A stretch of DNA of 64,000 bases from Escherichia coli O157:H7 (lineage in GTDB: Bacteria > Pseudomonadota > Gammaproteobacteria > Enterobacterales > Enterobacteriaceae): NCBI RefSeq assembly GCF_013167455.1, contig NZ_CP038328.1, one strand, 5' to 3'. The notes below the pieces were generated by a model, which did not search any database, was not told where the DNA came from, and saw nothing but the letters and a program-made list of their open reading frames with translations. Numbering within the stretch: the first letter of the stretch is position 1; the number at the start of each line of letters is the position of its first letter. Positions 41,709-45,039 of this stretch are shown in pieces. A program made the position numbers and the translations under genes.

Positions 41709-43687
<1,979 letters not shown>

Positions 43688-43689
<2 letters not shown>

Positions 43690-44827
43690 GTCAGAGCCCC
43701 TCGATCTCAATCAGTTAGCGCAAAAAATTAAACAGTGGGGGCTGGAACTGGGCTTTCAGCAGGTAGGTATTACCGATACCGATCTCAGCGAGTCCGAGCC
43801 CAAACTGCAAGCATGGCTGGACAAACAATACCACGGCGAAATGGACTGGATGGCACGTCACGGTATGCTGCGCGCTCGCCCCCATGAGTTATTGCCCGGT
43901 ACGCTGCGCGTGATCAGCGTGCGGATGAATTACCTTCCTGCTAACGCCGCATTTGCCAGCACGCTGAAAAACCCCAAACTCGGCTATGTTAGCCGTTATG
44001 CGCTGGGCCGTGACTATCACAAACTTCTGCGCAACCGACTCAAAAAGCTGGGCGAGATGATTCAGCAACATTGTGTTTCGCTGAATTTTAGACCGTTTGT
44101 CGATTCTGCGCCTATTCTCGAGCGCCCGTTAGCTGAAAAAGCTGGGCTCGGCTGGACAGGTAAGCACTCACTTATCCTCAATCGCGAGGCCGGTTCGTTC
44201 TTCTTTTTAGGCGAATTGCTGGTCGATATTCCGCTGCCCGTGGATCAACCAGTCGAGGAAGGATGCGGCAAATGCGTGGCCTGTATGACGATTTGCCCGA
44301 CCGGTGCCATCGTCGAGCCATATACCGTCGATGCTCGCCGCTGTATCTCTTATCTCACCATCGAACTGGAAGGGGCGATCCCGGAAGAGTTGCGACCGTT
44401 AATGGGAAACCGTATTTACGGTTGCGATGACTGCCAGCTTATCTGCCCGTGGAATCGCTATTCACAACTCACTACAGAAGACGATTTCAGCCCGCGTAAG
44501 CCGCTACACGCACCGGAACTCATTGAGTTATTCGCCTGGAGCGAAGAGAAGTTTTTAAAAGTCACGGAAGGTTCGGCGATTCGCCGTATAGGTCACCTGC
44601 GCTGGCTGCGTAATATCGCCGTGGCATTAGGCAATGCGCCCTGGGATGAAACGATTCTGGCGGCGCTCGAGAGTCGCAAAGGTGAGCACCCACTTCTTGA
44701 TGAGCACATAGCGTGGGCGATGGCGCAGCAAATCGAGAGGCGAAATGCGTGCATAGTCGAAGTGCAATTGCCGAAAAAACAGCGTCTGGTTCGGGTAATT
44801 GAAAAAGGGTTACCGCGTGACGCCTGA
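43688..44827 (+). CDS. queG: epoxyqueuosine reductase QueG (379 aa)
   Basis: ORF 43580..44827; start at MSEPLDLNQ; 4Fe-4S Cys motifs (CGKCVACMTICPTGA, CDDCQLICPWN). Confidence 0.8.
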
Positions 44828-45039
44828 TTCATCCACAGCTTGTGAATAAAAATAAAAACGCATTGCAATTCAAGACGAATAAAATCGTCAAGTGATCGAC
44901 TCGACAAAACGAAATCTTAATTTTTAAATTATCTATCAATAGGTTAAAAAAATACTATTCACCGTGCGAAGTTTCTTTGAAATTAAGATTACGGCCTGAG
45001 GCTGTGGATAACTCTGTTTACAAGAGTTTGTCAGAGACA

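What the first reader, a model, noticed from the sequence alone, without database searches (positions are those of the whole stretch)
43686..43690. Overlapping divergent start codons of nnr and queG
The queG ATG (43688-43690, plus) and the inferred nnr ATG (43689-43687, minus) share two nucleotides within CATGT, so each gene's promoter and ribosome-binding site must lie inside the other's coding region. nnr heads the long nnr-tsaE-amiB-mutL-miaA-hfq-hflXKC transcription unit, so this arrangement implies transcriptional interference or tight co-regulation with queG. It depends on my choice of the nnr start; the ORF could start at other in-frame codons.
Basis: inference. Interest (0 to 1): 0.3.

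Follow-up and report, generated by a model that had tools for sequence, protein, structure and literature searches.

The report
Head-to-head overlapping queG and nnr starts
Two divergent E. coli housekeeping genes, queG and nnr, really do begin on the same CATG, with each promoter inside the other gene, but this is already the standard annotation and their overlapping antisense transcripts are already published.

Summary
CATGT lies at 43686-43690, with the queG ATG at 43688-43690 (+) and the nnr ATG at 43689-43687 (-), sharing 2 nt. RefSeq and K-12 annotate exactly this.

Published K-12 data, mapped onto the window, place the queG TSS at ~43664, inside nnr codon 9. They place the nnr-operon TSS at ~44077, which is 388 nt upstream of the nnr ATG and inside queG codon 130. 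That gives 413 nt of complementary 5' RNA. The overlap was detected as dsRNA by antibody pull-down and by p19 capture, and queG-nnr is listed among 16 core divergent 'excludons' of E. coli.

My comparative work adds three points:
- Synonymous sites are frozen exactly at the two embedded promoters.
M1 has a conserved GAGG Shine-Dalgarno, many genera have no alternative start, and Pectobacterium keeps the M-T-D-H N-terminus even where a junction duplication has uncoupled the genes.
- The 2-nt overlap is conserved across Enterobacterales.

No regulatory outcome (interference or co-regulation) has been measured, and I found no direct N-terminal or TIS data. Verdict: real, ordinary, already known.

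The parts
43686..43690 (.). CATGT junction. The palindromic CATG (43687-43690) carries both start codons, which share 43688-43689.
   Evidence: annotated identically in RefSeq.
43688..44827 (+). queG CDS (epoxyqueuosine reductase, 379 aa)
   Evidence: Pfam QueG_DUF1730 + Fer4_16. Start fixed by in-frame stops 3-6 codons upstream in six genera and by alignment to the B. subtilis QueG structure from residue 6.
42142..43689 (-). nnr (yjeF) CDS, 515 aa, bifunctional NAD(P)HX epimerase/dehydratase, start at M1
   Evidence: Pfam YjeF_N (residues 40-199) + Carb_kinase. M1 supported.
43672..43674 (-). Alternative in-frame nnr ATG (codon 6, MKKNP...); minor or unused start
   Evidence: Anti-SD pairing only -3.2 kcal/mol. 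Codon 6 is CTG, GAG/GAA, AAG, CGG/CGA, ACG or TGC in Cedecea, Mangrovibacter, Serratia, Yersinia, Rahnella, Hafnia, Budvicia, Edwardsiella and others.
43697..43702 (-). nnr Shine-Dalgarno GAGGGG, 7 nt upstream of M1, encoded antisense to queG codons Pro4-Leu5
   Evidence: Anti-SD duplex -7.2 kcal/mol. GAGG or GAGAGG kept at a fixed distance in most of the 33 loci, weakened to GAAGGG/AAAGGG in two. queG Leu5 is CTC in 25/25 and Asp6 is GAT in 27/27.
43648..43656 (+). queG extended -10 promoter element TGgTATACT, antisense to nnr codons Ser12-Ile13-Pro14
   Evidence: TGnTAnAnT about 40 nt upstream of the queG ATG in nearly all Enterobacterales and many other gammaproteobacteria, including genomes where nnr is not adjacent. 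nnr codons AGT 31/31, ATA 20/20, CCA 30/30.
43664..43687 (+). queG 5' UTR (~24 nt, U-rich, no SD). Published queG transcript 5' end at U00096.2 4,392,114 = window 43664 (+/- a few nt; the G run at 43660-43663 is the likelier initiating base).
   Evidence: Conway coordinates quoted in the supplement of PMC7373196; mapping verified; anti-SD -2.2 kcal/mol, equal to the random mean.
44085..44090 (-). -10 hexamer TAAAAT of the distal nnr-operon promoter, antisense to queG codons Asn133-Phe134-Arg135 (AAT TTT AGA)
   Evidence: Lies 8 nt upstream of the published TSS. The block GGTCTAAAATTCAGCG is invariant in 21/21 Enterobacteriaceae. It is the lowest synonymous-diversity window in queG outside the first 15 codons, and the rare AGA codon is kept in 21/29.
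43690..44077 (-). nnr 5' UTR, 388 nt, fully antisense to queG codons 1-130. Published operon promoter at U00096.2 4,391,701 = window 44077.
   Evidence: Conway P 4391701, T 4408049; mapping.
43664..44077 (.). 413-nt region transcribed on both strands. dsRNA was detected here: Lybecker MS-212 = window ~43678-44061; p19 cluster S-361 = window 43669-44024.
   Evidence: ExcludonFinder lists queG-nnr.
43708..43710 (-). Upstream in-frame TTG (MRSRGSDM-); rejected as a start
   Evidence: No SD (+1.9 kcal/mol). The TTG is absent in many genera (L007, L018, L019, L022-L026 and others).

Best explanation
queG and nnr are a genuine head-to-head gene pair whose start codons share the palindrome CATG. Each gene is driven by a promoter embedded in the other's coding sequence.

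queG is transcribed from an extended -10 promoter (TGgTATACT, 43648-43656) lying in nnr codons 12-14. This gives a ~24-nt leader with no Shine-Dalgarno.

The nnr-tsaE-amiB-mutL-miaA-hfq-hflXKC... operon is transcribed from a promoter (-10 TAAAAT, 44085-44090) lying in queG codons 133-135. This gives a 388-nt leader that is antisense to the first third of queG. Nnr is translated mainly from the overlapping ATG (M1), using a GAGG Shine-Dalgarno that lies in queG codons 4-5.

The two promoters face each other 413 bp apart, so the two mRNAs are complementary over 413 nt. That stretch includes both start codons and the nnr SD. They form dsRNA that RNase III cleaves.

Shown: the sequence arrangement, the conservation, the published transcript 5' ends and the published dsRNA.

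Inferred: the pairing, and possibly polymerase collision, lowers expression. The effect would be asymmetric, because cleavage falls inside queG's coding region but mostly in the nnr leader.
For: Sequence and annotation.

Published transcript ends and dsRNA (mapping verified):
- Conway promoter 4,391,701 and overlap to 4,392,114 (413 nt).
- Lybecker dsRNA MS-212, 4,391,717-4,392,100.
- ExcludonFinder lists queG-nnr among 16 divergent excludons seen in at least 50% of 58 transcriptomes.
- O157 and K-12 differ at only 3 positions in 43560-44140, none in these elements.

Independent comparative support:
- The lowest synonymous diversity in nnr is at codons 6-14 (0.10 against a mean of 0.53), where AGT, ATA and CCA are invariant. 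These codons are the antisense of the -10.
- In queG the lowest windows are codons 1-14 and codons 125-135. The latter coincide with the published nnr TSS and -10.
- TGnTAnAnT persists about 40 nt upstream of queG even where nnr is absent or moved.

M1 as the start:
- Anti-SD pairing is -7.2 kcal/mol for M1 and -3.2 for M6.
- M1 is in frame in 32 of 33 species, with a tail of constant length (11 codons) or an in-frame +12 nt.
- Codon 6 is not a start codon in roughly half of the loci.
- In Pectobacterium a ~146-bp junction duplication uncouples the genes, yet nnr still begins MMTDH with synonymous codon changes, a stop 3 codons upstream and no codon-6 start.
Against: No direct N-terminal or translation-initiation-site data for Nnr could be retrieved. 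M1 is confounded with queG's own ATG, because only the C at 43687 is free to vary. One genome (L020, a MAG) has +1 nt between M1 and M6, so only M6 is usable there; this could be an assembly error. Conway's transcript ends come from RNA-seq coverage, not from 5'-triphosphate-specific mapping. I could not check dRNA-seq or Cappable-seq tables. The simple sigma-70 scan found no promoter-like site in 43200-44200, because both promoters lack a good -35. No experiment shows that the antisense overlap changes the level of either protein. The nnr -10 is conserved only within Enterobacteriaceae.
Confidence: 0.85

Rival explanations
1. The CDS overlap is an annotation artefact. Nnr would really start at the downstream in-frame ATG (codon 6, 43674-43672), so the two coding regions are separated by a 13-nt spacer and do not overlap.
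For: An in-frame ATG exists 5 codons downstream. It is ATG, GTG or TTG in most Enterobacteriaceae. L020 has a +1 frameshift that leaves only this start. Residues 1-10 are a poorly conserved tail outside the YjeF_N domain.
Against: The SD is weak (-3.2 against -7.2 kcal/mol). Codon 6 is CTG, GAG, GAA, AAG, CGG, CGA, ACG or TGC in roughly half of the loci, and those have no other start. Thr2-Asp3-His4 are kept at the amino-acid level with synonymous changes in Pectobacterium, where they are freed from queG.
Confidence: 0.12
2. The overlap is functionally neutral. The divergent pair simply has a compact ancestral arrangement, and the antisense RNA and dsRNA are by-products with no regulatory consequence.
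For: No study retrieved reports a reciprocal expression change. Several lineages have broken the arrangement without obvious compensation: the Pectobacterium/Brenneria duplication and the loss of nnr at this site in Morganellaceae. The distal nnr promoter is conserved only in Enterobacteriaceae.
Against: The dsRNA cluster is among the most abundant for coding genes. The overlap is seen in at least half of 58 transcriptomes. The CATG coupling is conserved across at least five families of Enterobacterales. None of this demonstrates a function.
Confidence: 0.4
3. An upstream out-of-frame ATG at 43678-43680 (+) starts a regulatory uORF ([17 protein letters not shown]) that overlaps and controls the queG start.
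For: This ATG lies 10 nt upstream of the queG ATG inside the leader and is present in 28 of 33 coupled genomes.
Against: The ORF length varies from 8 to 100 codons. The start codon becomes CCG, ACG, AAT or GAT in genomes where nnr is uncoupled. It is simply the antisense of the Nnr His4 codon.
Confidence: 0.03

Closest known systems
Divergent 'excludon' (Listeria mogR/flagellar locus; Sesto et al. 2013 concept, as applied to E. coli by ExcludonFinder, PMC12288877)
   Same: Neighbouring divergent genes whose 5' transcript regions overlap extensively (413 nt here), form dsRNA and are RNase III substrates. queG-nnr is explicitly listed as one of 16 core divergent excludons in MG1655.
   Different: The defining outcome, mutually exclusive expression, has not been shown for queG-nnr. 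Here the coding sequences themselves also overlap by 2 nt, and both promoters are intragenic.
Classical divergent overlapping promoters in E. coli (ilvY-ilvC, Wek and Hatfield 1986; argECBH), cited in PMC4161252
   Same: Divergent transcription units whose promoters are arranged so that the transcripts overlap at their 5' ends.
   Different: Those pairs have an intergenic control region bound by a shared regulator. queG-nnr has no intergenic DNA at all, and no known regulator.
Other p19/J2-detected 5'-overlapping divergent pairs in E. coli (asd-yhgN, rsd-nudC, cpxR-cpxP, plsB-dgkA; PMC7373196)
   Same: Same class in the same data set: 5' overlap, supported by the Lybecker dsRNA and the Conway overlapping operons.
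   Different: Most of those pairs overlap only in UTRs or promoter-proximal codons. Here one leader runs through 130 codons of the partner gene.

Membership tests
Divergent excludon (overlapping 5' transcription of neighbouring divergent genes) | Adjacent genes on opposite strands, transcribed away from each other | tested here: met
Divergent excludon (overlapping 5' transcription of neighbouring divergent genes) | Each transcript starts beyond the other's start, so the 5' regions are complementary | tested here: met
   Published 5' ends mapped to window 43664 (+) and 44077 (-), giving a 413-nt overlap. Conserved embedded -10 elements lie at the expected distance from each. No new wet-lab data.
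Divergent excludon (overlapping 5' transcription of neighbouring divergent genes) | dsRNA formation and RNase III processing of the overlap | tested here: met
   From the literature only: Lybecker MS-212 and p19 clusters S-361 and E-284.
Divergent excludon (overlapping 5' transcription of neighbouring divergent genes) | Reciprocal (mutually exclusive) expression of the two genes | not testable with these tools
   No expression-correlation or mutant data were found in the papers read.
Head-to-head overlapping coding sequences | The queG start codon at 43688 is genuine | tested here: met
   In-frame stops 3-6 codons upstream in L005, L022, L034, L035, L039 and L041. No nearby downstream start. 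Homology to solved QueG begins at residue 6. The TSS at ~43664 excludes upstream starts.
Head-to-head overlapping coding sequences | The nnr start codon at 43689 is genuine | tested here: inconclusive
   Strong comparative support but no direct N-terminal or TIS evidence. One genome (L020) contradicts it.
Nnr (bifunctional NAD(P)HX epimerase/dehydratase) and QueG (epoxyqueuosine reductase) families | Domain architecture: YjeF_N + Carb_kinase for Nnr; QueG_DUF1730 + 4Fe-4S for QueG | tested here: met
   Pfam hits far above the gathering scores; PDB homologues TM0922 and 5D08.

The most novel reading that the evidence does not exclude
The CATG-coupled starts plus the 413-nt antisense overlap could be a conserved cis-regulatory switch. 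It would make QueG synthesis and expression of the nnr-tsaE-...-miaA-hfq operon mutually antagonistic, linking queuosine tRNA modification to the t6A/i6A/Hfq superoperon. The unexplained freezing of synonymous sites in nnr codons 2-4 (43678-43686) would then mark an additional, unrecognised element, such as a processing or binding site at the shared initiation region.
Probability: 0.12. Interest if true: 0.45.

Novelty: already known. Interest (0 to 1): 0.15.

Why it matters
This locus is a clean textbook case of how far bacterial genome compaction can go. There is no intergenic DNA, two promoters are written in the antisense of codons, and a Shine-Dalgarno is written in the antisense of a Pro-Leu dipeptide. 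The constraint is visible as rare codons (ATA, AGA) frozen across genera. It also puts a long antisense leader in front of the operon that carries tsaE, mutL, miaA and hfq. However, the annotation, the transcript overlap and the dsRNA are all published, and no regulatory consequence is known. Its value is confirmatory: it validates the nnr start and the published transcript 5' ends by independent comparative evidence. It is not a discovery.

Tried and rejected
- **Consensus promoter/terminator scan of 43200-44200:** nothing found. Both real promoters lack a -35, so the negative result is uninformative.
- **Upstream TTG (43710) as the nnr start:** rejected. It has no SD and is not conserved.
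- **uORF at 43678:** rejected.
- **Rfam scan of 43300-44300:** only a sub-threshold ilvB-OMG hit (20.7 bits against a gathering score of 95.9), which I treat as chance.
- **Independent TSS tables:** the SMRT-Cappable-seq and Cappable-seq supplements held no entries for these genes or coordinates. The Conway supplements are not held. The Thomason dRNA-seq paper is not held.
- **Direct start-site evidence:** the TetRP, TRAINSPOTTER, INRI-seq and Salmonella riboproteogenomics supplements gave nothing usable.
- **RNase III cleavage-site paper (PMC5371410):** it does not mention these genes.
- **PDB:** no E. coli Nnr structure that could show the N-terminus.
- **RNA folding of both initiation regions:** only weak structure, -3.0 and -7.9 kcal/mol.

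Full report
**1. Observation**

The window carries 5'-CATGT-3' at 43686-43690. The ATG at 43688-43690 opens the 379-codon queG frame on the + strand. The reverse-strand ATG at 43689-43687 opens the 515-codon nnr (yjeF) frame. The two start codons share 43688-43689 within the palindrome CATG.

The window is 100% identical here to E. coli O157:H7. RefSeq annotates the same 2-nt divergent overlap in O157:H7, DH5alpha and MG1655. Pfam confirms both proteins: YjeF_N + Carb_kinase for Nnr, and QueG_DUF1730 + Fer4_16 for QueG.

**2. Are both start codons real?**

*queG.* Six genera have an in-frame stop 3-6 codons upstream of the ATG. There is no ATG, GTG or TTG in the next ~20 codons. Homology to the solved B. 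subtilis QueG begins at residue 6. The queG start is secure.

*nnr.* In E. coli the only candidates are an upstream TTG (43710), M1 (43689) and M6 (43674). The next Met is residue 42, inside the conserved core.

I compared 33 Enterobacterales species fetched with QueG as the query. The results were:
- M1 is in frame with the conserved body in 32 of 33.
- The tail before the conserved Ser-(Ile/Leu)-Pro is 11 codons in 30 species and 15 codons (an in-frame +12 nt) in two.
- A GAGG-type Shine-Dalgarno sits at a fixed distance upstream in most of them.

Anti-SD pairing energies were -7.2 kcal/mol for M1, -3.2 for M6 and none for the TTG.

Codon 6 is a possible start (ATG, GTG or TTG) only in the core Enterobacteriaceae genera and one Pantoea. 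It is CTG, GAG, GAA, AAG, CGG, CGA, ACG or TGC in Cedecea, Mangrovibacter, Serratia, Yersinia, Rahnella, Hafnia, Budvicia, Acerihabitans, Edwardsiella and a second Pantoea. In those genera M1 is the only available start.

These signals are partly confounded, because the same nucleotides are queG's ATG and its codons 4-5.

The cleanest evidence comes from Pectobacterium and Brenneria. There a stretch of about 146 bp, which looks like a tandem duplication of the junction, has separated the genes.
- The queG-proximal copy keeps the promoter motif, the CATG and a decayed relic of the nnr tail.
- The Pectobacterium nnr copy begins M-M-T-D-H using ACA GAT CAC in place of ACG GAC CAT. So the amino acids are kept while the synonymous sites have changed.
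- That copy has an in-frame stop three codons upstream and no start at codon 6. The Brenneria nnr copy begins M-A-D-Q instead.

These codons are therefore translated, and the M1-equivalent is the start.

One counter-example is L020, a metagenome-assembled genome. It has one extra base between M1 and M6, which leaves only M6 usable. I could not retrieve any direct N-terminal or TIS-profiling evidence. I put M1 as the main start at about 0.8-0.85.

**3. Where are the promoters?**

A supplementary table of Huang et al. 2020 (PMC7373196) collates three data sets in U00096.2 coordinates:

| Source | Feature | U00096.2 coordinates |
|---|---|---|
| Conway et al. | yjeF operon promoter | 4,391,701 (+) |
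| Conway et al. | operon terminator | 4,408,049 |
| Conway et al. | overlap with the divergent queG transcript | to 4,392,114 (413 nt) |
| Lybecker et al. | dsRNA MS-212 | 4,391,717-4,392,100 |
| Huang et al. | p19-captured dsRNA clusters | 4,391,754-4,392,109 and 4,391,759-4,392,107 |

I verified the mapping between the window and K-12 base by base. O157 and K-12 differ at only 43592, 43635 and 43882 within 43560-44140.

In window coordinates:
- The queG transcript starts at about 43664, giving a 24-nt leader. This lies inside nnr codon 9.
- The nnr operon transcript starts at about 44077, giving a 388-nt leader. This lies inside queG codon 130.

Sequence elements fit both positions:
- TGgTATACT, an extended -10, lies at 43648-43656, with its last base 8 nt upstream of the queG 5' end.
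- TAAAAT lies at 44090-44085, also with its last base 8 nt upstream of the nnr 5' end.

Neither promoter has a good -35, which explains why the consensus scan found nothing.

**4. Independent comparative support for the embedded promoters**

I measured synonymous-codon diversity along both genes.

*In nnr* (33 species, mean 0.53), the lowest window is codons 6-14 at 0.10. Ser12 is AGT in 31/31, Ile13 is ATA in 20/20 (the others have Leu TTA) and Pro14 is CCA in 30/30. These are the exact antisense of TGG-TAT-ACT or TGG-TAA-ACT, and they include rare codons.

*In queG* (29 species, mean 0.48), the lowest windows are codons 1-14 and then codons 125-135, which correspond to window 44060-44092. 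The second region coincides with the published nnr TSS and -10. There Asn133 is AAT in 27/29, Phe134 is TTT in 27/28 and Arg135 is the rare AGA in 21/29.

The block GGTCTAAAATTCAGCG is invariant in 21/21 Enterobacteriaceae. In Erwiniaceae, Yersiniaceae, Pectobacteriaceae and Budviciaceae it becomes GAAAAT, GGAAAT and similar. So the distal nnr promoter looks specific to the family.

The queG motif TGnTAnAnT is far older. It sits about 34-52 nt upstream of queG in most of the 80 loci. These include Alteromonadales and Tolumonas, and also Photorhabdus, Xenorhabdus and Proteus, where nnr is absent from this site and queG faces tsaE. In Enterobacterales the Nnr tail is therefore written across a pre-existing queG promoter and leader.

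**5. Mechanism**

The two promoters face each other 413 bp apart. Both RNAs cover both start codons and the nnr SD (43697-43702).

Documented:
- The overlap forms dsRNA, by J2 antibody pull-down and by p19 capture of RNase III products. [quoted passage not shown]
- ExcludonFinder lists queG-nnr among only 16 divergent excludons present in at least 50% of 58 MG1655 transcriptomes.
- In vitro run-off arrays show yjeF, yjeE, amiB and mutL behaving as one sigma-70-preferring unit.
- Conway et al. describe the 14-gene yjeF-rlmB operon as the most complex in their data set. The gene order is confirmed.

Inferred, not shown: pairing, RNase III cleavage and polymerase collision reduce expression. The effect would probably be asymmetric, because the duplex lies inside queG's coding region but mostly in the nnr leader. 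I found no evidence for 'tight co-regulation'.

**6. Comparison with known systems and novelty**

The locus meets the structural criteria of a divergent excludon and is already listed as one. The defining functional criterion, reciprocal expression, remains untested.

The annotation, the operon structure, the transcript overlap and the dsRNA are all in the literature, so the finding is already known.
- Codon-level evidence for both embedded promoters.
- Comparative validation of the M1 start.
- The Pectobacterium/Brenneria junction duplication as a natural uncoupling experiment.
- An unexplained freezing of synonymous sites in nnr codons 2-4.

**7. Verdict**

The finding is real and correctly read, and its interpretation is largely right, but it is ordinary and already documented. 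Interest is 0.15.

Noticed in passing
window 43678-43686 (nnr codons 2-4, ACG GAC CAT; equivalent to queG positions -10 to -2): These three codons are invariant at synonymous sites in coupled Enterobacterales (28/28, 26/27, 28/29). They vary synonymously in Pectobacterium, where nnr is uncoupled. The same queG leader positions are not conserved in uncoupled genomes. Neither protein coding alone nor the queG leader alone explains the nucleotide-level constraint.
   Followed up: partly
L029 2355-2502 (Pectobacterium betavasculorum); L033 2354-2502 (Brenneria roseae): A stretch of about 146 bp that looks like a tandem duplication of the queG/nnr junction separates the two starts. Between them lie a decayed relic of the nnr tail (MMGHRNKQDVLMLPY...*), still overlapping the queG ATG, and a decayed relic of the queG 5' end.
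   Followed up: partly
L037, L049 (Photorhabdus), L041 (Xenorhabdus), L040 (Proteus), about 2100-2500: nnr is missing between queG and tsaE. queG is divergent from tsaE with an intergenic region of about 170-180 nt. The queG TGnTAnAnT motif and the C before the ATG are retained.
   Followed up: partly
window ~44810-44863 (-): The 18-codon ORF yjeV is convergent with queG and overlaps its last 18 nt. It is annotated in RefSeq and listed in the literature as a yjeV-queG convergent excludon and as a 'noncontiguous operon' yjeV-queG-nnr.
   Followed up: no
window 42142-42170 (-): The nnr and tsaE coding sequences overlap by 29 nt on the same strand. The nnr stop lies inside tsaE, which suggests translational coupling.
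   Followed up: no
L051, L057, L061, L064, L070 (Vibrio spp.), about 2440-2500: Upstream of queG there are repeated GATC-containing motifs (TAAGATCCGTTAAGATCC). There is no TGnTAnAnT motif and no nnr homologue within 2.5 kb, so queG has a different upstream organisation in Vibrio.
   Followed up: no
L008, L012 (Escherichia sp. ESNIH1, Pseudescherichia vulneris), about 2440-2500: An in-frame 12-nt insertion in the nnr N-terminal tail (MTDHTLKSRLNKNRTTIPH) also lengthens the queG leader, with the -10 motif at -52 instead of -40. Both functions therefore tolerate some length change.
   Followed up: partly
window 43635: O157 has G where K-12 has A. This changes Nnr residue 19 (His in O157, Tyr in K-12) and lies just upstream of the queG -10 element. 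It is one of only three differences between the two strains in 43560-44140.
   Followed up: no
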